From the IMG/VR virus record IMGVR_UViG_3300025821_000010: a DNA stretch of 20,000 bases; one strand, 5' to 3'. This DNA comes from an uncultured virus (IMG/VR IMGVR_UViG_3300025821_000010). Its lineage: Duplodnaviria > Heunggongvirae > Uroviricota > Caudoviricetes. Positions 1-10,447 of this stretch are shown here, in pieces. The notes beneath the pieces were generated by a model. That model did no database searches. It worked only from the letters and a program-made list of their open reading frames with translations, and was not told the DNA's origin. Each line of letters begins with the position of its first letter. The stretch's first letter is position 1. The position numbers were made by a program, and so were the translations under genes.

Positions 1-329
1 CTTCTAATGGCTCCTTTTATTCTTTTAGACAGGAAAGACTTTAATGTTTTTTCCTCGTCTTCTGAGTTTTCTATTGTTTCCCATATTATTTTGTCAACAG
101 CTTTGATCAGTCCCAAACTACCGTCCTGTATTAAATCTGTAATATCCATAACACCGGAAGCTTGTTGAGCTGTTGAAAACTTCCTTGCTATGTTTTCTAC
201 TAAAGGTAAAAACTTAATTATAAGCTCGTCTCTAGTGTACTCGTTAAATGGTTTTTCGCCGACACGTTCAATTGAAGACTTTACATCTTCTTTATATCGT
301 ACGTAGTTCTGAATGTTGTACTTTTTCAT
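1..329 (-). CDS. Phage-encoded sigma70-family RNA polymerase sigma factor (N-terminal part; runs off the left edge)
   Basis: Manual translation from ATG at 329: MKKYNIQNYVRYKEDVKSSIERVGEKPFNEYTRDELIIKFLPLVENIARKFSTAQQASGVMDITDLIQDGSLGLIKAVDKIIWE...LKSFLSKRIKGAIR. ELIIKFLPLVENIARKF, DLIQDGSLGLIKAVDK and SFLSKRIKGAIR match the sigma70 region 2 pattern. Not in the ORF track because it is truncated. Confidence 0.85.
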   Translation of the reverse strand, partial: MKKYNIQNYVRYKEDVKSSIERVGEKPFNEYTRDELIIKFLPLVENIARKFSTAQQASGVMDITDLIQDGSLGLIKAVDKIIWETIENSEDEEKTLKSFLSKRIKGAIR

Positions 330-945
330 ATCCGTTGTTTAATAGTTCCTTCTCTTTTTTGAGTTCATTGGTCATATTACGGTATATGGTTCTTGGTGTA
401 CAATTTAATTGTTCAGCTAAATTAGCTACTGTTATTTTATTCCCGCAGTCGTTTATGTATAGCATAACATCGTAGATGTCAGACTCGGTAATTCTTTTGC
501 TTCTACCTACGAGTTGTCCTACGATACTTAGTTTGTCTGACAATTCTAGTTTACAATTATAATTAAATATAACTTTACGGGTCTTATTAGATGGATCTTG
601 TTCTAGGTCACACATACTTATTTCGTATATGATTTTATTTAACAAGTCATCATTTATTGTAAATGTAACAAATCCATTTTTAATATTGCATATAAATTTA
701 GATAAATTTAAAAAATTATCAGGATCAAGTTTTGGGTTAAGATACCATAGAACTAATAAATGCCACTTTAAAGATTTGTAGGTGTTGATCTTAGCTTTAC
801 TTCTAAAAAGATCATAACACTCTCTGGTACCGTCTTCATAAAACCAACCCCAATCATATGTTGAAGTTGGCTTGTCTTTAACTGGCAACCTTCTGTAAAG
901 TATTCTGTTTCGATGTAAATAATCGAGACGACGTTCGTATGACAT
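292..945 (-). CDS. Putative DNA-binding protein with C-terminal helix-turn-helix (217 aa)
   Basis: ORF track. C-terminal KITVANLAEQLNCTPRTIYRNM is a typical HTH. Overlaps the sigma-factor start. Confidence 0.7.
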   Translation of the reverse strand: MSYERRLDYLHRNRILYRRLPVKDKPTSTYDWGWFYEDGTRECYDLFRSKAKINTYKSLKWHLLVLWYLNPKLDPDNFLNLSKFICNIKNGFVTFTINDDLLNKIIYEISMCDLEQDPSNKTRKVIFNYNCKLELSDKLSIVGQLVGRSKRITESDIYDVMLYINDCGNKITVANLAEQLNCTPRTIYRNMTNELKKEKELLNNGYEKVQHSELRTI

Positions 946-988
946 TAGCCTATTACCCCTTTATATTAACTACCTATTGTCACACTGT
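938..988. repeat. Inverted-arm element copy 1 (TATGACATTAG-25 nt core-CTATTGTCACACTGT); core reversed relative to copies 2 and 3
   Basis: Read directly from sequence. Arms are identical to those at 9878-9927. Overlaps the start codon of the HTH gene (945). Confidence 0.85.
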
Positions 989-1331
989 GACTGTTTATTA
1001 ATCTAATGGAAACATTATTCCATTTTCCATATTTTACTTTTTTGTTAACCAAAAAATCAATTTTTTTAGTCCAACGTTTATTCATGCGATCACGAATATA
1101 CCAAATGCCATTCATACGTCCAGCATTCTCTACGCAAATTGTTTTACCCATAGTAAAACCTATTTTTTCAAGATCTCTTGATACAGCTACTATTCTATGC
1201 TTTTTAGGGTTATCTAAATCAATAACAAAACCCGTTGCTGTTATGTTTGGTGTATCATCTGTTTGACCTGGCACCGCATTGTAAACAGTTGCTGTTACGC
1301 ATGCTACTATACTTACTATTAATGTTTTCAT
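966..1331 (-). CDS. 3D-domain (MltA/RlpA-like double-psi beta-barrel) cell-wall-associated protein
   Basis: TATVYNAVPGQTDDTPNITATG, IVAVSRDL and IRDRMNKRWTKKIDF follow the 3D-domain pattern. Hydrophobic N-terminus. Confidence 0.75.
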   Translation of the reverse strand: MKTLIVSIVACVTATVYNAVPGQTDDTPNITATGFVIDLDNPKKHRIVAVSRDLEKIGFTMGKTICVENAGRMNGIWYIRDRMNKRWTKKIDFLVNKKVKYGKWNNVSIRLINSHSVTIGS

Positions 1332-1609
1332 GATTTATTCTTTTCAATTAAACTAATAAGTTTTTCAATGTCTTCTTTACTGGTAAATTCAATATTATCG
1401 TAATCAAACATTTCTACACCCCAGCCATTTTTTTTAGCTTCTCCGTTATCACTAGATATTAAACATAATTCATTTGTAATATTATATGTGTAATAGTAAT
1501 AAGGTTTTAGATCTGAGTCTTTATGTTCTGGGTATAAATCAGTTACATATGATTTTTTAAACCCTAAATCTATTAAATCTTGTTCTTTCATATTGTTTTT
1601 TTTACTCAT
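1328..1609 (-). CDS. Hypothetical phage protein
   Basis: ORF track gives 1328..1612. First ATG is at 1609; 1591 is an alternative. Stop overlaps the next start (ATGA). Confidence 0.7.
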   Translation of the reverse strand: MSKKNNMKEQDLIDLGFKKSYVTDLYPEHKDSDLKPYYYYTYNITNELCLISSDNGEAKKNGWGVEMFDYDNIEFTSKEDIEKLISLIEKNKS

Positions 1610-1769
1610 CAAAAAATTCCTTTACTTGTTTTGTATTCCAAGATGCTGCTAAAGATATTTGCCTTAACAGGTCTACATACTCTGTAAAGTCTATATCTGA
1701 ATGGTCTACTTCTACTGAATACTTATATTCGTACTGTTCTATTGTTATTCTGTAAGGTTGTTTTTTCAT
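1602..1769 (-). CDS. Hypothetical protein, 55 aa (MKKQPYRITIEQYEYKYSVEVDHSDIDFTEYVDLLRQISLAASWNTKQVKEFFDE)
   Basis: Manual translation. Fills the gap and is ATGA-coupled to 1766..2032. Confidence 0.7.
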   Translation of the reverse strand: MKKQPYRITIEQYEYKYSVEVDHSDIDFTEYVDLLRQISLAASWNTKQVKEFFDE

Positions 1770-2032
1770 ATCTCTTTGGTGTTAAAGGTTTGGTCAAAAC
1801 ACTGTTCGTTATCGTAATAGTTTACCCAAAAATCTCTGTTTTGACCTATTGATTGAAACTCACACATAACTTCTTTTTCTTTCTCAAGCATTGATTCTGC
1901 TATTTCTAAATAAAATTGAGACATTCTAATAGCTATCAAGCCACCGTTAGAAGGGTGTGTATTATAGTGCAAAGTATCTTCTTTGAGTTTTTCTTTCATA
2001 AACTCAATCATTTCTTGCATTGGTGTTTTCAT
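1766..2032 (-). CDS. Hypothetical phage protein (88 aa)
   Basis: ORF track; translationally coupled on both sides. Confidence 0.7.
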   Translation of the reverse strand: MKTPMQEMIEFMKEKLKEDTLHYNTHPSNGGLIAIRMSQFYLEIAESMLEKEKEVMCEFQSIGQNRDFWVNYYDNEQCFDQTFNTKEI

Positions 2033-2172
2033 AAAAATTCTATTATAACATTTTTGTTATAGTCTTTTAATATTCTTTCAACTGCCGCATCTTGCACGTG
2101 ATCAGCAACAACACCATTAATTAAGTAATCGTGGGTATCGCTGCCGTCAATTATACGCATTGTGTATAGCAT
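2029..2172 (-). CDS. Hypothetical protein, 47 aa (MLYTMRIIDGSDTHDYLINGVVADHVQDAAVERILKDYNKNVIIEFL)
   Basis: Manual translation. Starts just after the upstream stop and overlaps the downstream start (ATGA). Confidence 0.6.
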   Translation of the reverse strand: MLYTMRIIDGSDTHDYLINGVVADHVQDAAVERILKDYNKNVIIEFL

Positions 2173-2174
2173 AA

Positions 2175-2465
2175 TTACTTTTTAAGATCATTAAGCTTTT
2201 TAACAACTTTGTTTATCTTGTTGTTTAATATAGCTGCTTTACTATAGTCTTCGTTTTGCTCATAGCGTAACAATAGCTCGTTAAGTCTTTTAAGTTCTAT
2301 TTCTAACAACTCTTGTTCAGATATAATATATTGACCACTAACTTCCGCGTCATCACCTAACGTTTCTTGCATGTTGTCAATAAACTGTTTATCAAACTCT
2401 TCTTGACGAGCATATATTTTGTCTACTATAATGTCAGCTAATTGGTTCATTTCTTGTTCAGTCAT
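2175..2465 (-). CDS. Hypothetical protein with C-terminal UVR-like coiled-coil motif
   Basis: ORF track. LNELLLRYEQNEDYSKAAILNNKI resembles the UvrB/C (UVR) motif. Confidence 0.65.
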   Translation of the reverse strand: MTEQEMNQLADIIVDKIYARQEEFDKQFIDNMQETLGDDAEVSGQYIISEQELLEIELKRLNELLLRYEQNEDYSKAAILNNKINKVVKKLNDLKK

Positions 2466-2688
2466 TTTGTTTAAGATCTTTTTTAATTAATGCGTATATA
2501 TATTTCCAAACTTTTGCGTCGTGTTCCTGATGTTGTAATACCATTTGTAACTGTTCTTTAGTTACACCAGCCCAACGCTTTTGTTTTATGTCATCAACAG
2601 TATTATTAATATCTATATCGGACATAATAACTTTAGCATTAGCTTTATCTAACGCGCGTTGTTTGGTATCAAAATCAGTTTCTATCAT
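2458..2688 (-). CDS. Hypothetical phage protein (76 aa)
   Basis: ORF track; overlaps both neighbours. Confidence 0.7.
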   Translation of the reverse strand: MIETDFDTKQRALDKANAKVIMSDIDINNTVDDIKQKRWAGVTKEQLQMVLQHQEHDAKVWKYIYALIKKDLKQND

Positions 2689-2915
2689 TATTTAATTTTT
2701 TTGTAGGAAAATAATCTAATTACATTCCTATTTAAGTATGCACCTTTTGATACTGCTGATCTTAAACCTTCAAACGTTCCTGAATCAACATCTGAATATA
2801 CATATTTAGATCCTGAGTTGAATTTAACTAATAATGTTTTTTTCATTGGTGTGTATGTAACTGAGTCTACCATACTTGAATACACATCGATCTTTTCTTT
2901 TAAAATTCTTTCCAT
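2688..2915 (-). CDS. KTSC domain protein
   Basis: SSMVDSVTY...LLVKFNSGSKYVYSDV...LRSAVSKGAYLNRNV is the KTSC signature. First gene after promoter motif P1. Confidence 0.85.
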   Translation of the reverse strand: MERILKEKIDVYSSMVDSVTYTPMKKTLLVKFNSGSKYVYSDVDSGTFEGLRSAVSKGAYLNRNVIRLFSYKKIK

Positions 2916-2937
2916 TGTTAATTGTTTTAATTGTTAT

Positions 2938-2975
2938 ATAATTATTATCTAGCTTGCCGCGTATTGTTTTTGTAA
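2938..2975 (-). promoter_or_regulatory. Conserved promoter-like motif P1
   Basis: Minus strand TTACAAAAAC AATACG CGGCAAGCTA GATAATAATTAT, about 20 nt upstream of the KTSC ATG. Confidence 0.75.
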
Positions 2976-3422
2976 TTCATATCTTTTATTTTCTTCAGTG
3001 TTTTTAGATATGTGTTTTTCACTTATGTCTGCTTTCTTTTGCTCGAGTACAGCTATAGTGTTTTTTAATTCTAATATCCTATCGTTTATCTCGTTAATAG
3101 TTTTAACCTCTTGAACCTCAGATATATATATATTCTCTACTTTCCTGTACAACTCTTCTATATCTCTTTCGTATGGCAATTCATTTTCAAAGTTTTTAAT
3201 ACTATGTAAAACAGTTGCATGATCTTGACCCATACTTTTAGCTATTGCAGAACAACCAGCTGTAGAGTAATCCATTGATAGTTTATAGTAAACCCAACGC
3301 AACATTTTGTATTCACGTTTGCGTGTATTTACTTTGTATGAATACTCACCAGCTTCGTCTAATATTTTATAGTAAAAGTAGTTTAGTATTTTTTTATTTG
3401 ATGGTGTAATTCTTGGTGTCAT
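2949..3422 (-). CDS. DnaA domain IV-like (Bac_DnaA_C-type HTH) DNA-binding protein with C-terminal coiled coil
   Basis: TRKREYKMLRWVYYKL...SAIAKSMGQDHATVLHSIK matches the DnaA C-terminal signature (R.R...R...YL...IG..FG.RDHTTV.HA). No AAA+ domain, so it is not a true DnaA. Confidence 0.75.
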   Translation of the reverse strand: MTPRITPSNKKILNYFYYKILDEAGEYSYKVNTRKREYKMLRWVYYKLSMDYSTAGCSAIAKSMGQDHATVLHSIKNFENELPYERDIEELYRKVENIYISEVQEVKTINEINDRILELKNTIAVLEQKKADISEKHISKNTEENKRYELQKQYAAS

Positions 3423-3432
3423 ATGTTTATAT

Positions 3433-3693
3433 TTAATCTAGTAATACCATGTAAGCTTCTGCGTTTGAATGCCTAAACCAATCAAGGCCTTTTCTAAACT
3501 CTGAGTCTATCATTCTATTGGATTGACCTCGTTCTATTAACCATTGAGCACCCATTATAAAATCATACATAGATAACTCATTGTTATTTAACTCTGCTTC
3601 TGCTCCTGTAAAAGGATTTTTAACCGTATCGCCGCTAGCGTATACTTTACCTTCGAACCATTTTGGTAAACCCATTTTTTCTTTTGTTTTCAT
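3433..3693 (-). CDS. Hypothetical phage protein (86 aa)
   Basis: ORF track; within the tightly packed operon. Confidence 0.75.
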   Translation of the reverse strand: MKTKEKMGLPKWFEGKVYASGDTVKNPFTGAEAELNNNELSMYDFIMGAQWLIERGQSNRMIDSEFRKGLDWFRHSNAEAYMVLLD

Positions 3694-3884
3694 AATTTCT
3701 TTTCATTTAATAGTTTAAAATGTTTATATACTTCAGGTATATGCTTTTTGTAGTAAGGTTGTGAACTTTTAATCTCGTCTTTTAATTTTTCAGGATCATC
3801 AATGCGTGGCCAGTTTTGAAAATCTACCTCTACTTCATTAATAAAATCTTGTACTGTCCAGCCTTCCCATACGTGTCTATTCAT
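3690..3884 (-). CDS. Hypothetical phage protein (64 aa)
   Basis: ORF track; ATGA coupling. Confidence 0.7.
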   Translation of the reverse strand: MNRHVWEGWTVQDFINEVEVDFQNWPRIDDPEKLKDEIKSSQPYYKKHIPEVYKHFKLLNEKKL

Positions 3885-3886
3885 AA

Positions 3887-4234
3887 TTAAAATTTGTGTG
3901 ACATTTTATTATTTACATACCATTCATTCCATAAGTATTCCCAACGATCGCTATCCTCTCCAAGATCACATTCGTCTAATATATATTCATCAACATAGAT
4001 GAAAGACCCTAAGTTTATAGCAGATTCAATTTCTGGCTGCAAGTAATGAGCTTGAGTGTATATATCTCTATCAGGTATAACACTTTTCCAGTCAGCTTGG
4101 TCTAAAGCAACATATATATCATGACCATCTGCTGTCATTATTGATTCAAAAGATACATCATATCCAACACCACCGTGTTCAGTGTCAAGTGTTGATCCTG
4201 ACTTTTCAAGTACTAAGTTTTTGTAATGTGACAT
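3887..4234 (-). CDS. Acidic hypothetical protein (115 aa)
   Basis: ORF track; D/E-rich. Confidence 0.7.
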   Translation of the reverse strand: MSHYKNLVLEKSGSTLDTEHGGVGYDVSFESIMTADGHDIYVALDQADWKSVIPDRDIYTQAHYLQPEIESAINLGSFIYVDEYILDECDLGEDSDRWEYLWNEWYVNNKMSHKF

Positions 4235-4237
4235 AAT

Positions 4238-4336
4238 TTAAAATATTAAGTTAAAAATTGATTTAAATACTACAAGCACAAGCAATATTACATTGAATAT
4301 TATCCATGCCATTATTATTTTTTCTATAGGCCTCAT
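4238..4336 (-). CDS. Small predicted membrane protein, 32 aa (MRPIEKIIMAWIIFNVILLVLVVFKSIFNLIF)
   Basis: Manual translation. Fits exactly between neighbours and has one hydrophobic helix. Confidence 0.55.
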   Translation of the reverse strand: MRPIEKIIMAWIIFNVILLVLVVFKSIFNLIF

Positions 4337-4337
4337 A

Positions 4338-4943
4338 TTAATGATATATTAGTCCGACTTTGTTAGTTTTGTTAAACCATCTGGTTGCATATAGATCATT
4401 CTCTGACGCATTAGCATAACCAGCAGCAACTAATTCATCTGCAGTTTTAAATATCTCTGTATGACGATCTATTGACTTGTCTATAAGATCTACTTGTTTG
4501 CCTGAGTTACTGAATATAAAGTCATAATTGCTAGGTACATCAGCTTTTTTAACCATATCGATCATGTTGGTATAACTATAGAAATTTACATGTGGATTTT
4601 GCTTTGCAATTTGAAACCACTTAGCTAAATACTCACGTGAATAATAGTCGCCGCTATCGTGTACTCGCACAAACTTAGGCTTTTTGCTCTGTATCTCGGC
4701 GTGTATAGCACTTACAAAGCTATCTGTCTTGCTAAGCTCGTAACGTTTTTCGAACGCTGGCTTTACATTACCCCATATATACGCGCCTTTACGTGCATAA
4801 CAGAACTTAATACAACCATCTGCCATAGGGCAAATGACTCTACCTGTTATACTTTTGTAAGCTGGTAAGCCAAAGTTGACAACTTTAAAGCCCATTAGCT
4901 TACTAGTCTTTTTTAATTTACCGTTTTGTGTTAACAACTGCAT
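4338..4943 (-). CDS. Phage gp88-like protein (Cys-cluster, radical-SAM-like)
   Basis: FGLPA...CPMADGCIKFCYARKG and VRVHDSGDYYS...YSYT are characteristic of the GP88 family. Confidence 0.75.
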   Translation of the reverse strand: MQLLTQNGKLKKTSKLMGFKVVNFGLPAYKSITGRVICPMADGCIKFCYARKGAYIWGNVKPAFEKRYELSKTDSFVSAIHAEIQSKKPKFVRVHDSGDYYSREYLAKWFQIAKQNPHVNFYSYTNMIDMVKKADVPSNYDFIFSNSGKQVDLIDKSIDRHTEIFKTADELVAAGYANASENDLYATRWFNKTNKVGLIYH

Positions 4944-5263
4944 AATACTTCTTGTAATTTATCTGTTATAGCAAATATAAATTCCGCTGGCTCTGTTTTA
5001 CCGCCAATACTCCACGTCGTTAGATCGTTTTTAGTATAGTTTTCGCTGTATGTTTTCCAATCATATAATGTATATATGTTGTCTTTAAATTTAAACACCC
5101 ATTCGAATTGAACTTTGCCATCGCCTGAATCATCTGGTGAATAAGTTGGGCTACCAAACGCAAGTATTAAATCATTGTAGTAATAGCCGTGTAATGAACC
5201 TATTTTATGAGTGCCATGTGTTGCTGATTTCCAGTCAGCTTCGTGTTTAGTTAGTTTTTTCAT
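4931..5263 (-). CDS. Conserved hypothetical phage protein (110 aa)
   Basis: ORF track; FGSP...DGKVQFEW...YTLYDWK...WSIGG pattern. Confidence 0.75.
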   Translation of the reverse strand: MKKLTKHEADWKSATHGTHKIGSLHGYYYNDLILAFGSPTYSPDDSGDGKVQFEWVFKFKDNIYTLYDWKTYSENYTKNDLTTWSIGGKTEPAEFIFAITDKLQEVLCSC

Positions 5264-5264
5264 G

Positions 5265-5453
5265 TTACCAAGTTTTAGTTAAATATGTGTTATAGTATTG
5301 CTTTAATGTTTTATTAAATAAATCCATAGCTGCATTATCTGTTTCTTTGATTAAATCTTTATCGTAAAGCATTTCTAATAATTGCTCGCTGACAAAGTCG
5401 CATGTTAGCTCATAAAGATCGCTAGATAATTCTTGATACATTTGCTTGTTCAT
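5265..5453 (-). CDS. Hypothetical protein (62 aa)
   Basis: ORF track; first gene after P2. Confidence 0.7.
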   Translation of the reverse strand: MNKQMYQELSSDLYELTCDFVSEQLLEMLYDKDLIKETDNAAMDLFNKTLKQYYNTYLTKTW

Positions 5454-5477
5454 GGTTATAATTTTTATTTGTTATAC

Positions 5478-5515
5478 ATATATATTATCGTAAGTGCTAC
5501 GTATTATTTTTGCAA
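5478..5515 (-). promoter_or_regulatory. Conserved promoter-like motif P2
   Basis: TTGCAAAAAT AATACG TAGCACTTAC GATAATATATAT on the minus strand. Confidence 0.8.
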
Positions 5516-5727
5516 TACTTTTCTTCGTAAGCTAATAAGTATTCAATTTGTTCTTTAATATCTTTGAACTTTCTTTTTACCTGATAGATCAATGGACCTT
5601 GGTGGTATGGGTTATCTTGATTGGTTTTAAAGCGTACGTACTTGGTTTTAGGGTAGATACCTGCCCATTTACCGTTTGATAGTGTTACGTATATATTACC
5701 TTTTTTAGTTACTTTAGTGATTTCCAT
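5497..5727 (-). CDS. Basic hypothetical protein (76 aa)
   Basis: ORF track. Confidence 0.7.
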   Translation of the reverse strand: MEITKVTKKGNIYVTLSNGKWAGIYPKTKYVRFKTNQDNPYHQGPLIYQVKRKFKDIKEQIEYLLAYEEKYCKNNT

Positions 5728-5729
5728 AA

Positions 5730-5885
5730 TTATTTTATCTTGTTTTTGCGTGTGTATAGCACTTGTAATAGATCTGAAGCTTTATACATATCTAACTTTT
5801 CGTTAGTATCTCGCTTATGATCTACTAATAAATGCAAGCCATCTATTAATGAGTCTAGTTGTTCTGAGTTAAAAAATAAGTTCAT
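5730..5885 (-). CDS. Hypothetical protein, 51 aa (MNLFFNSEQLDSLIDGLHLLVDHK...)
   Basis: C-terminal part of ORF-track 5730..5963. ATG 5885 is preferred because the upstream part is occupied by the Cys-rich ORF. Confidence 0.6.
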   Translation of the reverse strand: MNLFFNSEQLDSLIDGLHLLVDHKRDTNEKLDMYKASDLLQVLYTRKNKIK

Positions 5886-5979
5886 CTTCGTTTTCGTTAT
5901 AAAATTCAGCGTGTTCTTTGCAGTCGGAGCAAATATCCGTTTCAAACCATGGCGATGCGCCACAACAGTTACTTTCCAT
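5869..5979 (-). CDS. Small Cys-rich zinc-ribbon-like protein, 36 aa (MESNCCGASPWFETDICSDCKEHAEFYNENEDELIF)
   Basis: Manual translation. CCG...CxxCxxH; starts 2 nt after the upstream stop. Confidence 0.7.
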   Translation of the reverse strand: MESNCCGASPWFETDICSDCKEHAEFYNENEDELIF

Positions 5980-5981
5980 AA

Positions 5982-6287
5982 TTAATCTTTTAAATATCCA
6001 CGTAATTCTTTATCTTCTATTTGTAATAAGAAATCCCATAATAGATTGTGGAAATCTTCCATGTCATCCCACTCGCAATTATCGTGGACAAAATTCCATT
6101 TATCAGCTAATGGTACGCCTACGTGATCTTTAACAGTGTCTGGATCAAAGTAAAACCTATATTTTAGTTTTGCTATTATATCTTTAATAACAGGATTAGT
6201 ATCATTTGGAAACATAGTAACATGTTTTATTAGATACTTGGTTAATACTGTGTGCTCTTCGTTGTTTAAATAAATTTCTTTAGACAT
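5982..6287 (-). CDS. Hypothetical protein (101 aa)
   Basis: ORF track; first gene after P3; leader AAATAATATAACT-ATG. Confidence 0.75.
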   Translation of the reverse strand: MSKEIYLNNEEHTVLTKYLIKHVTMFPNDTNPVIKDIIAKLKYRFYFDPDTVKDHVGVPLADKWNFVHDNCEWDDMEDFHNLLWDFLLQIEDKELRGYLKD

Positions 6288-6310
6288 AGTTATATTATTT
6301 TAATTATTAT

Positions 6311-6348
6311 ATATATATTATCTGAGGTGCTACGTATTATTATTGTAA
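6311..6348 (-). promoter_or_regulatory. Conserved promoter-like motif P3
   Basis: TTACAATAAT AATACG TAGCACCTCA GATAATATATAT. Confidence 0.8.
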
Positions 6349-6465
6349 ATTTGCTAATATAAACTCTGTTAGTAAATATGCGCAGCCAAGTATTCCGCTG
6401 AGCGCAGCTGTATATAGTACGCATAGCCACGTGTATAGCATAGCGTTAGTTATTTTATTCTTCAT
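6340..6465 (-). CDS. Small predicted membrane protein, 41 aa (MKNKITNAMLYTWLCVLYTAALSGILGCAYLLTEFILANLQ)
   Basis: Manual translation; hydrophobic core. Confidence 0.5.
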   Translation of the reverse strand: MKNKITNAMLYTWLCVLYTAALSGILGCAYLLTEFILANLQ

Positions 6466-6619
6466 CTTGTATTTCTTTTATTATTTCTGTTAATTCTTCT
6501 AAGTTATTTAAATGGTAGTGTGAGTGGTATTCATCACCTACTTTTATAGTAGTATCTATTAAATCATTATACTCTGATCCAGTGAACCAGATTTCTATGT
6601 TTATTTTTTTAGCTAACAT
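6455..6619 (-). CDS. Acidic hypothetical protein, 54 aa (MLAKKINIEIWFTGSEYNDLIDTTIKVGDEYHSHYHLNNLEELTEIIKEIQDEE)
   Basis: Manual translation; overlaps both neighbours. Confidence 0.6.
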   Translation of the reverse strand: MLAKKINIEIWFTGSEYNDLIDTTIKVGDEYHSHYHLNNLEELTEIIKEIQDEE

Positions 6620-6882
6620 GACGCCCAACCTATAAAGTGATATTTATCTTGTGTTTCAAAGTATACACACTCTCGTTTACGTAGTTCGTCTAACGCTGCA
6701 TCATAGTGGTCGTCGCTTTCGGGCTCTTTTATTTCGCCTAATAAACTGCATGTAGCTATAGTGCCTGAGTAAGGATCGTGGCCATGCTCATATAGTGCAT
6801 CTTCTACTAGTTCTCTAAACGCTTGCTTTGCGCTTTCGTAATTCTTTTTTGGTACTGATTGGTGAAAGGATGTTGCTCCCAT
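6613..6882 (-). CDS. Conserved hypothetical phage protein (89 aa)
   Basis: ORF track; MGA.SF...A.YEHGHDPYSGTIAT...FIGWASC pattern. Confidence 0.75.
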   Translation of the reverse strand: MGATSFHQSVPKKNYESAKQAFRELVEDALYEHGHDPYSGTIATCSLLGEIKEPESDDHYDAALDELRKRECVYFETQDKYHFIGWASC

Positions 6883-6884
6883 AG

Positions 6885-7082
6885 TTAAGATATATTAAAT
6901 GTTAGTGGAAATTTACTAGCTATTAACTTTGCTAATGGCAAGTCTTTATTAGCACCATCGCATATTAGCTTACATAAGTTTTCTTGTTTCTCGAATAATT
7001 CTTCTTGCCATATCATATCGCTTAAGAAAAAATCTTCTCCTAAAATCTCGCAGAATTTAGTTACAAATTGAGCGTGTGTCAT
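6885..7082 (-). CDS. Hypothetical protein (65 aa)
   Basis: ORF track; leader AAATAATATAACT-ATG. Confidence 0.7.
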   Translation of the reverse strand: MTHAQFVTKFCEILGEDFFLSDMIWQEELFEKQENLCKLICDGANKDLPLAKLIASKFPLTFNIS

Positions 7083-7101
7083 AGTTATATTATTTTAAGT
7101 G

Positions 7102-7263
7102 TTAGAAGTAATCTTGTCTAATAAAGTTATTAATTATATCGTGTACTTTAATTTGATTAGTTAAAGGTAGTGAGTTAAACTCTTCGTCGTGTTTCCAATT
7201 CTTTAAGTCGCTTTTGTCTTGCCACCTATTATAGATCTTGTGTGCGATTTCTTGATTAGTCAT
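7102..7263 (-). CDS. Hypothetical protein, 53 aa (MTNQEIAHKIYNRWQDKSDLKNWKHDEEFNSLPLTNQIKVHDIINNFIRQDYF)
   Basis: Manual translation; same AAATAATATAACT-ATG leader. Confidence 0.7.
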   Translation of the reverse strand: MTNQEIAHKIYNRWQDKSDLKNWKHDEEFNSLPLTNQIKVHDIINNFIRQDYF

Positions 7264-7270
7264 AGTTATA

Positions 7271-7447
7271 TTATTTATAGTTATTATTTAGTGATCCGTT
7301 ATAAAATTCTTCTTCAAGTATATTAACTATTGCTTCCATAGCTAATGATGCTTCGTATGGCGTAGCATATGGTGTATTCTCATACGCTATAGCTACTTTA
7401 CCTATAGATTCTATTATTTGCTCGTTACTCATAGGATATTGCCTCAT
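7271..7447 (-). CDS. Hypothetical protein, 58 aa (MRQYPMSNEQIIESIGKVAIAYENTPY...)
   Basis: Manual translation; ATGA coupling to the upstream ORF. Confidence 0.6.
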   Translation of the reverse strand: MRQYPMSNEQIIESIGKVAIAYENTPYATPYEASLAMEAIVNILEEEFYNGSLNNNYK

Positions 7448-7605
7448 AGCTTTTTTATTTTATTAGATAAAGTGTATGCGTTTAGTGTTTGCTCTATAGT
7501 ATTTATAGTTTCTAACATGCTTGCATTATTATCTTCTGCTTTATATAATATATAGCGTATATCACTGATTAATTGCTCAGTTTCGGTGAGATTTTTAGTG
7601 GACAT
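7444..7605 (-). CDS. Hypothetical protein, 53 aa (MSTKNLTETEQLISDIRYILYKAEDNNASML...)
   Basis: Manual translation; TAACT-ATG leader. Confidence 0.6.
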   Translation of the reverse strand: MSTKNLTETEQLISDIRYILYKAEDNNASMLETINTIEQTLNAYTLSNKIKKL

Positions 7606-7607
7606 AG

Positions 7608-7811
7608 TTATTTAATATATGTTAGTGATAATAAACTAGCGGATATAAAGGTTAAGCCATTGTAGTTAAACCACTCGCGCACTGCAGAATCTTTTGCTAC
7701 TTCGGCGAAATTTTTAGGCAAACTAGATACGGTGAAGCCTATATAACGCTTACGATTTGAGCGTATTAGAGGTAATTTAGAAATTTTGGTAGTTTTAATA
7801 GTTAAAGACAT
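7608..7811 (-). CDS. Basic hypothetical protein (67 aa)
   Basis: ORF track; first gene after P4. Confidence 0.7.
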   Translation of the reverse strand: MSLTIKTTKISKLPLIRSNRKRYIGFTVSSLPKNFAEVAKDSAVREWFNYNGLTFISASLLSLTYIK

Positions 7812-7843
7812 AGTTATATATTTTAAGTTATTAATTAATGTAT

Positions 7844-7881
7844 ATTTATATTATCAACACTACAACGTATTATTATTGTAA
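7844..7881 (-). promoter_or_regulatory. Conserved promoter-like motif P4
   Basis: TTACAATAAT AATACG TTGTAGTGTT GATAATATAAAT. Confidence 0.8.
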
Positions 7882-7972
7882 CGAAGGTGGTTTATTATTT
7901 ATTAGTTGAAAAGAGTAGAGGGATATTATACTCTGTCTCTCCATACAAGAATATAATTCTCCCCGCAGAAAA

Positions 7973-8018
7973 GTGTGACATTAGCTAGTTAAATAGTAGG
8001 GTAACAGGCTATTGTCAC
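7973..8018. repeat. Inverted-arm element copy 2 (GTGTGACATTAG-CTAGTTAAATAGTAGGGTAACAGG-CTATTGTCAC)
   Basis: Read directly; intergenic. Bracketed by direct repeats AGAAAAGTGT at 7967-7976 and 8024-8033. Confidence 0.85.
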
Positions 8019-8039
8019 CCCCTAGAAAAGTGTATAGCA

Positions 8040-8216
8040 CTACAGATCACTGTATTTTATTAGTGCGAATATATCTTCTTCGTTTACTTCTATTTCACTA
8101 TCTTCTGCGTGCATAGTCATAGTGAAGTTTAGTATAAATTCAGCGAGATCATTCTTATCCCACTCTAATAATTGCTCGTAAGAGAATAGTTTGCTTGATA
8201 GTACTAGTTTTTCCAT
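8040..8216 (-). CDS. Acidic hypothetical protein, 58 aa (MEKLVLSSKLFSYEQLLEWDKNDLAEFILNFTMTMHAEDSEIEVNEEDIFALIKYSDL)
   Basis: Manual translation. Directly downstream of P5; stop followed immediately by TGCTATACAC. Confidence 0.7.
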   Translation of the reverse strand: MEKLVLSSKLFSYEQLLEWDKNDLAEFILNFTMTMHAEDSEIEVNEEDIFALIKYSDL

Positions 8217-8231
8217 GTTTAATTATTTTAT

Positions 8232-8269
8232 AAATATATTATCTTATAGTGTACGTATTATTTTTGTTG
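8232..8269 (-). promoter_or_regulatory. Conserved promoter-like motif P5
   Basis: CAACAAAAAT AATACG TACACTATAA GATAATATATTT. Confidence 0.8.
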
Positions 8270-8286
8270 AGCGCAAGTGTATAGCA

Positions 8287-8517
8287 TTAAGAGATAAGTT
8301 CTCTTAACACTACTGGAACACTTGTTGAAGAAGTATAGCTTTTATATTTAATAAAGCAAGGCATTACTTCGAGTTTCGCTTGCATAATTTTATACGCTTC
8401 GTCGTGATTGTAAGTTACTTCTTTTCCACTTTTGAATTTGACTTTTATTATAGTGTTAGAGCCAATAAGTGATTTTCTGATTAAAAAGCGTTTTGAGTTT
8501 AAAGTTTGAGTTTGCAT
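8287..8517 (-). CDS. Small basic protein, paralog A (76 aa)
   Basis: ORF track. 52/65 aa identical to 9185..9427 by manual alignment; preceded by P6. Confidence 0.85.
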   Translation of the reverse strand: MQTQTLNSKRFLIRKSLIGSNTIIKVKFKSGKEVTYNHDEAYKIMQAKLEVMPCFIKYKSYTSSTSVPVVLRELIS

Positions 8518-8558
8518 AGTGATTTAATTTAAGTTATTAATTATTATTTTTTAGTTAC

Positions 8559-8596
8559 ATATATATTATCTAGTAGCGAACGTATTATTTTTGTTG
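8559..8596 (-). promoter_or_regulatory. Conserved promoter-like motif P6
   Basis: CAACAAAAAT AATACG TTCGCTACTA GATAATATATAT. Confidence 0.8.
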
Positions 8597-8684
8597 AGCG
8601 CAGCGAAGTGCTATACACGCCTGGCGGCGTTAACTATAGTGTGTGACGGAGTCTACTCTTCCGACGCTATTTCAAAGTCAGGCC
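8597..8684 (-). ncRNA. Candidate small structured RNA downstream of P7
   Basis: GC-rich, ORF-less interval between P7 and P6. Hairpins ACGCC-TGGC-GGCGT (outer CTATA/TATAG) and CGGA...TCCG. Inference only. Confidence 0.3.
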
Positions 8685-8722
8685 TTATATATTATCTTAA
8701 CAGCAGCGTAAAACTTTTGTAA
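8685..8722 (-). promoter_or_regulatory. Conserved promoter-like motif P7
   Basis: TTACAAAAGT TTTACG CTGCTGTTAA GATAATATATAA. Confidence 0.7.
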
Positions 8723-8750
8723 TCAAACGCTCCTGTTCGCGCTGTGAGGT
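8723..8750. repeat. GTGAGGT boundary element 1 (type A)
   Basis: TCAAACGCTCCTGTTCGCGCTGTGAGGT; 23/28 identical to 9510-9537 and at the same distance from its promoter motif. Confidence 0.8.
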
Positions 8751-8751
8751 C

Positions 8752-8931
8752 CTATTTAAAAGACCTCAACCATTCGATTACTCCATCATAATGCTCTTTC
8801 ATTGCAGGAGATTCTTCACATGTATAATAAGGTTTAGAGAACATTGCTTTGGTTTCTCTACCTAAAGCATTACTATAGGTTATAGAGTAATAGTTTGATT
8901 TTGGGTTGTTGGTGATCTTAAATGGTATCAT
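8752..8931 (-). CDS. Hypothetical protein, 59 aa (MIPFKITNNPKSNYYSITYSNALGRETKAMFSKPYYTCEESPAMKEHYDGVIEWLRSFK)
   Basis: Manual translation; TAG stop lies 1 nt from boundary element 1. Confidence 0.65.
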   Translation of the reverse strand: MIPFKITNNPKSNYYSITYSNALGRETKAMFSKPYYTCEESPAMKEHYDGVIEWLRSFK

Positions 8932-8935
8932 ATGA

Positions 8936-9085
8936 TTAAGGTATTAGGTTTATATTAGAGTTCATTTCATCCCACATTTCTTGTAACCATGGTAATTCAT
9001 CATAGTCATCTAGTGTGTATTCTTTGTTGTTGATAGTGATAATGTCAATGTCATGATCTTCACTAATTAGTAATTTGATTTCCAT
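8936..9085 (-). CDS. Highly acidic protein, 49 aa (MEIKLLISEDHDIDIITINNKEYTLDDYDELPWLQEMWDEMNSNINLIP)
   Basis: Manual translation; directly downstream of P8; 13 D/E versus 2 K and no R. Confidence 0.65.
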   Translation of the reverse strand: MEIKLLISEDHDIDIITINNKEYTLDDYDELPWLQEMWDEMNSNINLIP

Positions 9086-9104
9086 AAGAGTTATTATTTA
9101 ATTT

Positions 9105-9142
9105 ATATATATTATCTGAAGAGTTCAGTATTTTTTTTGTAA
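9105..9142 (-). promoter_or_regulatory. Conserved promoter-like motif P8 (AATACT variant, lacks the CG)
   Basis: TTACAAAAAA AATACT GAACTCTTCA GATAATATATAT. Confidence 0.75.
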
Positions 9143-9155
9143 TTGCACTTCATTT

Positions 9156-9178
9156 GCTCAATAATAGTCGTGAGGTGT
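9156..9178. repeat. GTGAGGT boundary element 2 (type B)
   Basis: GCTCAATAATAGTCGTGAGGTGT; 21/23 identical to 9620-9642. Confidence 0.8.
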
Positions 9179-9184
9179 TAAGTA

Positions 9185-9427
9185 CTAAGAGACTGATTTG
9201 TCCCTTAGCACTGTTGGTATTGAAGTACTTGATGTGTATGATTTGTACTTGATAAAGCATGGCATTGTATCAAGCTTGTCCTTCATTATTTCATATGCTG
9301 CATCATGATTGTATTCATATTGCTTACCTGATTTGAATGTGACTTTAATGATTGTGTTTGTACCAATTAGAGATTTTCTGATTAAGAATCTTTTGCTTTC
9401 CATTGTTTTTTGATTTGAATTTGACAT
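9185..9427 (-). CDS. Small basic protein, paralog B (80 aa)
   Basis: ORF track; paralog of 8287..8517; preceded by P9; contains no CG dinucleotide. Confidence 0.85.
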   Translation of the reverse strand: MSNSNQKTMESKRFLIRKSLIGTNTIIKVTFKSGKQYEYNHDAAYEIMKDKLDTMPCFIKYKSYTSSTSIPTVLRDKSVS

Positions 9428-9471
9428 AATTGTTTGATTTAAATTTATATTAATTATTAATTATTTATTAT

Positions 9472-9509
9472 ATATATATTATCTATATACAAGCGTATTT
9501 TTTTTGTAA
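9472..9509 (-). promoter_or_regulatory. Conserved promoter-like motif P9
   Basis: TTACAAAAAA AATACG CTTGTATATA GATAATATATAT. Confidence 0.8.
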
Positions 9510-9537
9510 GCAAATGCTTCGGCTCGCGCTGTGAGGT
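9510..9537. repeat. GTGAGGT boundary element 3 (type A)
   Basis: GCAAATGCTTCGGCTCGCGCTGTGAGGT; last 14 nt identical to 8737-8750. Confidence 0.8.
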
Positions 9538-9560
9538 GGGCTATATTGCTCGCTGCTTAC

Positions 9561-9598
9561 ATATATATTATCTACTCGCAAGCGTATTTATTTTGTAA
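9561..9598 (-). promoter_or_regulatory. Conserved promoter-like motif P10
   Basis: TTACAAAATA AATACG CTTGCGAGTA GATAATATATAT; no ORF between it and P9. Confidence 0.8.
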
Positions 9599-9610
9599 CG
9601 CACATACTGG

Positions 9611-9642
9611 AATCAAAACGCTCAGTAATAGACGTGAGGTGT
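9611..9642. repeat. GTGAGGT boundary element 4 (type B right part, type A-like left part)
   Basis: AATCAAAACGCTCAGTAATAGACGTGAGGTGT. Left part matches AATCAAACGCTC at 8721-8732; right part matches 9156-9178. Confidence 0.8.
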
Positions 9643-9877
9643 CTTGTCAATTAGTATATCTCCAGGAAAAAAGCTAAAAGCTGGGGGTATTTCAACGTAA
9701 AAGGCAAAACATAAAACGCAAATCTTATAAAACACGGGGACCCCGGTCATTTTGAAACGCAAAAGGTTTTTAGTTGTTGTTGTAGAAAAGAAGGGGTAAC
9801 ACCCTACTCCTAAATTTCTAACATAATTTTTACCATACCCCTATATTTGTTACAATTTTTTTTATAAAATAAAAAAC

Positions 9878-9927
9878 TATGACATTAGGCTGTTATATTA
9901 AGGGGTAATAGGCTATTGTCACACTGT
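9878..9927. repeat. Inverted-arm element copy 3 (TATGACATTAG-GCTGTTATATTAAGGGGTAATAGG-CTATTGTCACACTGT)
   Basis: Read directly; abuts the plus-strand promoter-like motif P11. Confidence 0.85.
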
Positions 9928-9957
9928 AAAATACGATGCTTTCGTGTGAATATATAA
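9920..9957 (+). promoter_or_regulatory. Divergent plus-strand copy of the promoter motif (P11) in front of the structural operon
   Basis: AATACG (9930-9935) ATGCTTTCGT GTGAATATATAA. Same N10 spacing but GTGAAT replaces GATAAT; about 25 nt before ATG 9982. Confidence 0.6.
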
Positions 9958-9981
9958 AGTATACAAAAAAGACACAAAAAA

Positions 9982-10077
9982 ATGGCAGCAAACTTAGGAA
10001 ACGAGGCAGTTACAGTGATGTATCTAGGAAGCGAGACAGTTACAGCTGTGTATTTAGGTACAGAGCAGGTAATATAA
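9982..10077 (+). CDS. 31-aa repeat micro-protein (MAANLGNEAVTVMYLGSETVTAVYLGTEQVI)
   Basis: Manual translation. A-rich leader; three 10-aa/30-nt repeats that keep the amino-acid pattern despite codon changes. Confidence 0.7.
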   Translation: MAANLGNEAVTVMYLGSETVTAVYLGTEQVI

Positions 10078-10093
10078 TTTAAAATTTATTCTC

Positions 10094-10447
10094 ATGAACA
10101 TAGTAGGTAACGAAAACGACGACATACAAATACAATTAGATGAAAATGGGCAATGGACTCACCATGCTAGTGAAAAAACGGTGGGTAAACAGGTGCATTG
10201 TCATTATACTATTGTGTCTACTGATCATCCAGAGGAGGATGCTGGTTTAACATGGGATTTTGAATTGGATTGTAGCCATAATAACCAGACAAAGAAAGGT
10301 AATCAGATCCCTACAGGTGTAAAGTGGTCATGTGAGGTAAATACTAATTCCTCAAGTGACACGCAATTTGATTTTACGGTTACATCAAATAAAGGGCAAG
10401 ACCTTGCTGGTTATATTGTAAGATTACTAGCAGTAGAAAACTCATAA
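10094..10447 (+). CDS. Hypothetical beta-rich protein (117 aa)
   Basis: ORF track. Confidence 0.7.
   Translation: MNIVGNENDDIQIQLDENGQWTHHASEKTVGKQVHCHYTIVSTDHPEEDAGLTWDFELDCSHNNQTKKGNQIPTGVKWSCEVNTNSSSDTQFDFTVTSNKGQDLAGYIVRLLAVENS

What the first reader, a model, noticed from the sequence alone, without database searches (positions are those of the whole stretch)
8685..9642. Cassette-like array of promoter-plus-cargo units separated by GCTY-N10/11-GTGAGGT boundary elements
Seen in sequence: four elements (8723-8750, 9156-9178, 9510-9537, 9611-9642) alternate A-B-A-B. Each lies just upstream of a promoter motif (P7-P10). Elements 1 and 2 also sit within a few nt of the stop codon of the preceding minus-strand gene (TAG at 8752 and 9185). 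On the minus strand each unit reads ACCTCAC element, promoter, cargo. Cargo varies: none (P10), paralog B (P9), two small ORFs (P8), a structured ORF-less stretch (P7). Element 4 looks like a hybrid of an A-type left part and a B-type right part. Inference: an exchangeable early-gene cassette system in which conserved boundary and promoter sequences serve as recombination points. This is conceptually like T4-type promoter-early-stem-loop shuffling or an integron array, but with a site I do not recognise. The elements could instead be operators or protein-dependent terminators. No recombinase is visible in this window.
Basis: partly seen in the sequence, partly recalled or inferred. Interest (0 to 1): 0.8.

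Follow-up and report, generated by a model that had tools for sequence, protein, structure and literature searches.

The report
Repeated sites beside phage early promoters
A marine virus of Flavobacteria-type bacteria carries four copies of a short DNA site just upstream of its first-used promoters; the copies look like docking sites for an unidentified regulator rather than cut-and-paste cassette borders, and their middle ten bases are swapped between strains unusually often.

Summary
The four GCTY-N10/11-GTGAGGT elements are real and not chance. The window is the early/late junction of an uncultured Flavobacteriia-type phage. In 11 strains, GTGAGGT is kept in 41 of 41 covered slots, cargo order never changes, and the A-B-A-B alternation is strain-specific (C-A-B-B, B-D-B-B, B-B-B-B, A-D-A-B elsewhere). 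Of 10 gene gain/loss events, 7 have a junction at a start-codon repeat, 2 touch an element on one side, and none runs element-to-element. A complete relative has no integrase or resolvase but has Erf, an exonuclease and a sigma28-like sigma factor. The elements have no shared RNA fold, and some lie upstream of the outermost promoter or as cargo-free tandem pairs. Best reading (0.5): oriented DNA sites for an unidentified regulator of the first early promoters, reshuffled by short-tract gene conversion inside a PeSL-like modular early region. Main rival (0.22): backward promoters for the phage sigma; a sister clade's copies fit its late-promoter boxes, but the window's fit poorly. Unexplained: the 10-nt middle diverges 0.39-0.45 at three sites against 0.10-0.17 at third codon positions. 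One contig differs only there (7 of 7 changes in 322 nt).

The parts
8725..8750 (+). Element 1: AAAC-GCTC-N11 (A type)-GTGAGGT; its TGAGGTC also pairs with GACCTCA at 8762-8768 in the end of the neighbouring ORF
   Evidence: kept in 10 of 10 covering strains with 4 different middles
9156..9176 (+). Element 2: GCTC-N10 (B type)-GTGAGGT; the most variable slot
   Evidence: 7 different middles in 11 loci and an eighth in run X7
9512..9537 (+). Element 3: AAAT-GCTT-N11 (A type)-GTGAGGT
   Evidence: B type in 7 of 10 loci
9616..9640 (+). Element 4: AAAC-GCTC-N10 (B type)-GTGAGGT, upstream of the outermost early promoter
   Evidence: middle divergence 0.04
8689..8722 (-). Early promoter-like motif P7 (GATAAT box, TTACAA box 19-20 nt upstream); promoter function inferred
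   Evidence: the motif is family-wide
9109..9142 (-). Early promoter-like motif P8
9476..9509 (-). Early promoter-like motif P9
9565..9598 (-). Early promoter-like motif P10, the outermost
9185..9427 (-). Paralog B, 80 aa; family-wide first early gene, often in 2-4 tandem copies; no known family or fold found
8287..8517 (-). Paralog A, 76 aa, 70% identical to B
8936..9085 (-). Optional 49-aa ORF; absent in 6 relatives and replaced in 1, with junctions at the next start codon and at the P8 -10 region, not at the elements
8752..8931 (-). 59-aa ORF, kept in all 10 covering strains
8645..8684 (-). Conserved non-coding motif (P7 cargo): hairpin with loop UGAAAUA followed by GGAAGAGUAGACUCC
   Evidence: 23 distinct copies in fetched loci; one stem pair C-G in 10 and U-A in 9 of 19 aligned; no Rfam family at E<=5 other than a chance snoRNA hit
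8609..8618 (+). TGCTATACAC box: a second motif that fills the same slot upstream of early promoters (P5, P6 here; all terminal promoters in L007 and L039)
9926..9953 (+). Late promoter-like motif GTAAA-N15-GTGAATAT upstream of the late arm; used as the yardstick for the backward-promoter rival

Best explanation
The elements are oriented DNA binding sites (fixed GTGAGGT core, looser AAA-N-GC-N-C left arm, free 10-11-nt middle) for a regulator of the phage's first early promoters. Shown: fixed core, fixed orientation, clustering within about 1 kb at the start of the early arm, occurrence in several lineages, and sharing of the slot with a second box (TGCTATACAC). Inferred: a protein binds them 45-70 bp upstream of the transcription start and boosts or damps these promoters. 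The binder is a core phage protein or a host factor, because no accessory early gene tracks with the site. Also inferred: the middles and left arms are copied between slots and strains by short-tract gene conversion, probably using the phage's Erf annealing protein and exonuclease, with the promoter core and GTGAGGT as homology. Cargo ORFs are gained and lost separately, mostly at repeated start-codon/AT-rich leader sequences.
For: Core kept in 41 of 41 covered slots of 11 strains while neighbours diverge 0.2-0.45; 8 of these slots are in L002 and L004, found by a protein search and so free of motif selection. Copies upstream of the outermost promoter (E4; also L118, L093, L132/L153), where no leftward transcript is expected, point to DNA rather than RNA. 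Tandem copies with 25-nt or 30-nt period and no cargo. Gain of a copy at P5 in L105 and L156. No shared RNA fold in 25 variants; 0 terminator-like sites in 7600-10100. In another lineage (L040) the same heptamer is the upstream box of the early promoter itself in 2 of 5 promoters; 45 distinct promoters in 14 loci have a related YCGTG box there. This ties the word to promoter recognition. Erf (E 2.8e-33) and DUF3799 exonuclease are in the complete relative.
Against: No binder was identified: no early gene co-occurs with the site across 8 early regions, the paralog has no fold match, and the core HTH protein seems to have another site. Distance to the TTGT box varies (22, 23, 27, 29, 35, 41 nt), so there is no fixed helical phase. 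The left arm shifts by 1 nt between types, which is unusual for a rigid operator (own knowledge). Two extra copies (L142, L162) sit after an inserted ORF about 90-105 nt from the next promoter. The middle diverges faster than third codon positions, which an unconstrained spacer alone does not explain.
Confidence: 0.5

Rival explanations
1. The elements are backward-facing promoters (or non-productive parking sites) for the phage's own sigma28-like sigma factor. Once the sigma is made they fire rightwards into the 3' ends of the first early genes and into P10, damping early expression; element 4 fires toward the late arm.
For: The family late promoter is [GT]TAAA-N15-GTRA (22 of 27 dereplicated upstream regions). 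The phage sigma's best PDB hit is sigma28 FliA (E 1.9e-8), whose consensus has the same octamer-n11-octamer layout (PMC2859248, one table passage). Sister-clade elements place GTAAA at exactly that distance; 8 of them score 11.8-14.1 on the two boxes, against 11.0-17.3 for training promoters. T at -19 and T right after the heptamer are kept in 16 of 16 sister-clade sequences. Copies in L142 and L162 follow a stop codon without a nearby promoter.
Against: Window elements score 4.7, -2.8, 6.1 and 2.1, below the window's own late promoter (10.8) and all training promoters. With all informative columns even sister-clade copies reach at most 4.7 against 9.9-27.6, because they lack the AT-rich tail. 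Clade I never has T at -19 (0 of 24); in E. coli the TAAA-to-CAAA change cuts sigma28 activity from 223 to 23 units. The conserved GC-N-C arm and invariant GGT are not part of the late consensus. The 16 sister-clade sequences are related, not independent, and I chose the box columns myself.
Confidence: 0.22
2. One reading: the elements are recombination points bounding exchangeable promoter-plus-cargo cassettes.
For: L103 lost the P7 unit with its right junction in the left arm of element 1 (about 3-4 nt microhomology). L142, L162 and L128 carry an extra ORF followed by its own element, with two different ORFs in that slot. Middles are clearly exchanged between slots.
Against: 0 of 10 events have both junctions at elements; 7 of 10 sit at start codons, many far from any element; no reordering. 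No recombinase in complete G002 (controls rang in 14, 12, 9 and 4 of 14 genomes). No clean element-to-element joint among the 8 joints listed from 4 runs of assembled contigs (contigs drop rare variants).
Confidence: 0.1
3. RNA-level signal at the 3' end of each unit (factor-dependent terminator or processing site, read ACCUCAC on the early transcript).
For: Elements 1 and 2, the P5 gain and the two inserted copies all follow a stop codon closely. Element 1 can form a 7-bp hairpin with the gene end.
Against: No conserved fold: early-strand z-scores run from -2.8 to +1.4 with different stems, and no U tract follows; 0 terminator-like sites. Element 4 and several sister-clade copies lie upstream of the outermost early promoter.
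Confidence: 0.08
4. Relics: leftover upstream halves of YCGTG-type promoters from another lineage, without function.
For: The heptamer equals the upstream promoter box in L040; in 12 of 19 YCGTG promoters with a following GT, the GT begins an adjacent TGCTATAC-type box.
Against: 41 of 41 invariance amid 0.2-0.45 divergence implies selection; no matching -10 box lies 29 nt away (read).
Confidence: 0.05

Closest known systems
PeSL (promoter-early stem-loop) cassettes of T4-type phages (Arbiol et al. 2010, PMC2839356; Comeau et al. 2014, PMC4122927)
   Same: Dense repeated early promoters in a variable region of small orphan genes; single ORFs gained and lost next to repeated regulatory sequence; no dedicated recombinase needed.
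   Different: No stable terminator stem-loop; the extra piece is a fixed heptamer with a free middle. Most junctions are at start-codon repeats. The host phage is a sigma-encoding podovirus-like Flavobacteriia phage, not T4-type. Mini-circles were not tested.
sigma28 (FliA)-type bipartite promoters and phage-sigma late promoters (phiEco32 and 7-11, PMC8948821)
   Same: The phage's late promoter has a TAAA-N15-octamer layout, and sister-clade elements share that geometry on the antisense strand.
   Different: Window elements lack the conserved T of the upstream box and the AT-rich tail. The passages read from PMC8948821 contain no antisense promoter ('antisense' 0 occurrences).
Integron attC cassette arrays (features recalled)
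   Same: Units of cargo separated by a short site with a fixed 7-nt core and a variable inside.
   Different: No integrase, no bottom-strand hairpin, each unit has its own promoter, no reordering.
TIGR arrays (Faure et al. 2025, PMC12045711)
   Same: Short fixed motifs flanking a 9-11-nt variable segment; phage location.
   Different: No 36-nt dual-spacer units repeated 5-15 times; copies are split by promoters and genes; no Nop or IS110 Pfam hit.

Membership tests
PeSL cassette | Repeated early promoter in a hypervariable region, upstream of orphan ORFs | tested here: met
   9 copies from 5482 to 9565 upstream of small ORFs without PHROG hits; promoter activity itself is inferred
PeSL cassette | Stable stem-loop acting as terminator within the unit | tested here: not met
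   no shared fold in 25 variants; 0 terminator-like sites in 7600-10100
PeSL cassette | Gene gain/loss by recombination between flanking units | tested here: inconclusive
   10 events: 7 at start-codon repeats, 4 with a junction in or next to a promoter core, none removing one whole unit element-to-element
PeSL cassette | Excised mini-circles | not testable with these tools
   only assembled contigs could be laid
Integron / site-specific cassette array | Cognate tyrosine or serine recombinase in the genome | tested here: not met
   PF00589, PF00239 and PF07508 gave 0 matches in complete G002 in six frames
Integron / site-specific cassette array | Cassette excision or reordering exactly at the site | tested here: not met
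   0 of 10 events; order colinear in 12 relatives
TIGR array | Dual-spacer units of about 36 nt repeated 5-15 times | tested here: not met
   copies 103-426 nt apart in the window; at most pairs elsewhere; definition from PMC12045711 passages
TIGR array | Adjacent Nop-domain (Tas) gene | tested here: inconclusive
   PF01798 and PF02371 gave 0 of 4 records, but Tas proteins were mined with custom profiles that I did not have
Phage-sigma (sigma28-like) promoter | [GT]TAAA box 20 nt before GTRA | tested here: not met
   window and clade I: T at -19 in 0 of 24, box scores -2.8 to 6.1; met in the sister clade, T in 16 of 16
Phage-sigma (sigma28-like) promoter | AT-rich second half of the -10 box and tail | tested here: not met
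   all elements at most 4.7 against 9.9-27.6 on informative columns
Phage-sigma (sigma28-like) promoter | Transcription start just downstream | not testable with these tools
   the RNA run X15 is unstranded contigs
Intrinsic terminator | GC-rich hairpin followed by U tract | tested here: not met
Operator / activator site | Sequence-specific protein binding that changes promoter output | not testable with these tools
   only conservation and position support it; no candidate gene co-occurs

The most novel reading that the evidence does not exclude
The 10-11-nt middles are micro-cassettes swapped between fixed arms by a dedicated, site-directed process (for example a cut or nick set by GTGAGGT and repaired from another copy), so that a phage population keeps a pool of regulatory or guide-like variants at its first promoters. 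Evidence not excluding it: one 322-nt contig differs from the window at 7 positions, all inside the 10-nt middle of element 2; the middles of elements 1-3 diverge 0.39-0.45 against 0.10-0.17 at third codon positions; the same middle alleles appear at different slots.
Probability: 0.08. Interest if true: 0.75.

Novelty: new variant of a known kind. Interest (0 to 1): 0.34.

Why it matters
These phages are widespread (112 viral stretches encode the paralog) and have no close cultured match (no blastn hit in 50,697 phage records), so their transcription programme is unknown. The work defines their early promoter, late promoter and two upstream boxes, and gives testable sites. If the backward-promoter rival holds, a phage sigma would shut its own early genes by antisense firing. 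If the middles are swapped by a dedicated process, that would be a new small-scale diversifier. As a cassette-recombination system, the finding does not hold.

Tried and rejected
Own genome: none held; the nearest record G001 ends at window 7713, so the complete 67-kb relative G002 (about 90% identical here) stood in for gene content. Rfam on 7400-10100: one chance snoRNA hit, E 1.1. tRNA scan: 0. The first pattern scan was too strict and found only 2 same-genome loci. The clade-II scan gave 8 loci, of which 2 were real and 6 had no promoter context. Paralog function: no Pfam family over cut-off (best weak rows such as Enterotoxin_b in 8 of 69 members look like chance), no PDB sequence hit, Atlas hits below 0.9 and unnamed, and a confident model (pLDDT 89.5) without a fold match (best Z 2.9). 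The 217-aa core protein has a TetR-like HTH (Z about 5, middling) but no link to this site. The 2084-aa virion protein has no PDB hit suggesting an RNA polymerase. Co-occurrence of any early gene with the element: none (8 early regions, 2 of them from one chimeric record). Genome-wide avoidance: GTGAGGT occurs 2 times outside the cluster in G002 against 5 for the reversed control, which is uninformative. One search printed 17 rows; I dropped 2 (L128 at 6316, L162 at 7616) as single spurious anchors at contig starts and merged the other 15 into 10 events. For the 8936-9085 slot the exact-word anchors resume only near element 2, but the alignments show P8 and element 2 are retained. Laid contigs (4 of 24 listed runs) cannot show rare circles or RNA ends. 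Literature: searches returned 0 papers; some searches returned listings whose titles do not describe this element. No supplements were read.

Full report
Context. The window has short leftward ORFs from 1 to 9427 and long rightward tail-type genes from about 10,000. No own genome is held. A complete 67,201-nt relative, G002, is about 90% identical over the early region. It encodes a portal, a crAss-like muzzle domain, GroEL/GroES, ribonucleotide reductase, primase-helicase, Erf, a DUF3799 exonuclease and a sigma factor. Its putative major capsid protein matches Flavobacterium, Cellulophaga and Maribacter phages at under 60% identity (85 records). I infer a lytic podovirus-like phage of marine Flavobacteriia; the 14 runs holding half or more of the sampled words are labelled marine or estuary. 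The finding lies at the start of the early arm, next to the point where early and late arms diverge.

Observation. One of 2000 shuffles reached four copies of any GC-containing 7-mer. The promoter motif is family-wide.

Relatives. A protein search gave 80 loci, 5 of them close. A promoter-plus-GTGAGGT pattern gave 12 viral and 62 metagenome loci, 17 of which belong to the window's clade. Three of those are the window's genome again and three are one strain, leaving 12 for comparison, some closely related to each other. GTGAGGT is present in 41 of 41 covered slots of 11 strains (3 slots not covered). The type order is strain-specific: A-B-A-B (window), C-A-B-B, B-D-B-B, B-B-B-B, A-D-A-B, and five-element versions in L142 and L162. 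Middles diverge 0.45, 0.45, 0.39 and 0.04 at elements 1-4. The stretch between the TTGT box and the GC arm diverges 0.39, 0.45, 0.22 and 0.02, and the promoter spacers 0.32, 0.18, 0.06 and 0.05. Third codon positions of the two flanking genes diverge 0.10 and 0.17. So the whole intergenic module turns over fast, with the heptamer fixed. The sharpest case is a 322-nt contig in run X7 whose 7 differences from the window all fall in the 10-nt middle of element 2.

Cassette test. After dropping 2 artefact rows, 15 rows reduce to 10 gene gain, loss or replacement events across 2500-10000. Seven have a junction within 6 nt of a start codon (repeats of the CATAGTTA type). Two touch an element on one side: loss of the P7 unit in L103, and an extra ORF with its own trailing element in L142, L162 and L128. 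None has both junctions at elements and order never changes. Six-frame searches of G002 found no PF00589, PF00239, PF07508, PF02371 or PF01798 match, with working controls. Eight joints were listed from four runs of contigs; none is a clean element-to-element skip, though contigs drop rare variants. The region is modular in the PeSL sense (PMC2839356, parts 2 and 3 of 6 read; PMC4122927, part 1 of 3 read), but GTGAGGT is not the exchange point.

DNA or RNA. Twenty-five element variants share no fold on either strand, and the terminator scan found nothing. Element 4, and copies in L118, L093 and L132/L153, lie upstream of the outermost early promoter. A sister clade has AAAAGCYCC-N9-GTGAGGTTG, often as a tandem pair with 25-nt period, and a third lineage has 30-nt tandem copies. 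Because those loci were found by demanding GTGAGGT, their invariance is by construction. Among the 78 protein-found loci examined, the heptamer occurs in the terminal non-coding region of 7. Other lineages fill the same slot with TGCTATACAC (36 of 78) or their own repeated words. This pattern fits oriented DNA sites for a protein.

Which protein. No early gene tracks with the element across 8 early regions, so the binder would be a core phage protein or a host factor. The paralog family (141 distinct sequences) has no known fold. The core 217-aa HTH gene has a different inverted repeat over its start codon in 5 of 8 regions. Two clues point toward RNA polymerase. First, in L040 the heptamer is the upstream box of the early promoter itself, and 45 promoters in 14 loci have a related YCGTG box. 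Second, the late promoter on the + strand is [GT]TAAA-N15-GTRA, the phage sigma is closest to sigma28 (consensus layout from one table passage of PMC2859248), and sister-clade elements match those two boxes at the right distance. Against this, the window's own elements score 4.7, -2.8, 6.1 and 2.1 against 10.8 for its late promoter, lack the conserved T, and all elements fail once the AT-rich tail is counted. I therefore rank operators first (0.5) and backward promoters second (0.22).

Mechanism, shown versus inferred. Shown: fixed core, free middle, shuffling among slots, gene turnover elsewhere, absence of a site-specific recombinase, presence of Erf (a single-strand annealing family; PMC2896510, passages). 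Inferred: protein binding, its effect on P7-P10, and gene conversion as the cause of shuffling. Unexplained: why the middle turns over faster than third codon positions.

Known systems. It works like a PeSL-type modular early region with an added upstream site, but it fails the PeSL stem-loop test. It is not an integron array and not a TIGR array (PMC12045711, 12 passages). PMC8948821 (12 passages) is a precedent for phage-sigma late promoters, not for antisense ones. Seven literature searches turned up no description of this element in the held library; no supplements were read and most subscription papers are outside it. Earlier notes of this scan describe similar upstream operator pairs and counter-promoters in other phages; I did not check them.

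Verdict. Real and non-random, a new variant of a known kind; the cassette-recombination reading is not supported. Interest 0.34.

Noticed in passing
window 8645-8684 (-): Conserved non-coding motif with a covarying hairpin (C-G in 10, U-A in 9 of 19) and an invariant GGAAGAGUAGACUCC; 23 distinct copies in fetched loci, in 11 of loci L001-L080; no Rfam family. Likely a phage small RNA.
   Followed up: partly
window 940-982, 7976-8017, 9880-9921: TGACA-N32/33-TGTCA inverted repeat, present in 66 of 80 family loci. One copy overlaps the start codon of the core 217-aa HTH gene (292-945) in 5 of 8 early regions, suggesting autoregulation; another sits just before the late promoter.
   Followed up: partly
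window 457-8618: TGCTATAC-type box, 9 matches in the early arm in both orientations; also upstream of early promoters in 36 of 78 family loci, including phages lacking the DnaA-domain-like gene at 2949-3422.
   Followed up: partly
window 8287-8517 and 9185-9427: First early gene family: 141 distinct sequences, up to 4 tandem copies (L068), 14 invariant residues, confident model with no fold match.
   Followed up: yes
L040, L045, L068-L073: The upstream box of the early promoter switches from TTGT to YCGTG in these lineages while the TATTATC box stays; this may reflect a host or sigma change.
   Followed up: partly
window about 9982-10077 (+): Short 31-codon ORF with an internal 30-nt tandem repeat directly after the late promoter, kept in L002 and L004; the following 117-aa ORF (10094-10447) is absent from those relatives.
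   Followed up: no
window 5000-7500: Cumulative GC skew turns from falling to rising about 2.5 kb before the gene-orientation switch at about 9900; possibly near a replication origin.
   Followed up: no
window 9690-9830: GC-rich short inverted repeats between the arms, conserved in relatives; many contigs of this family end within about 2 kb of here.
   Followed up: no
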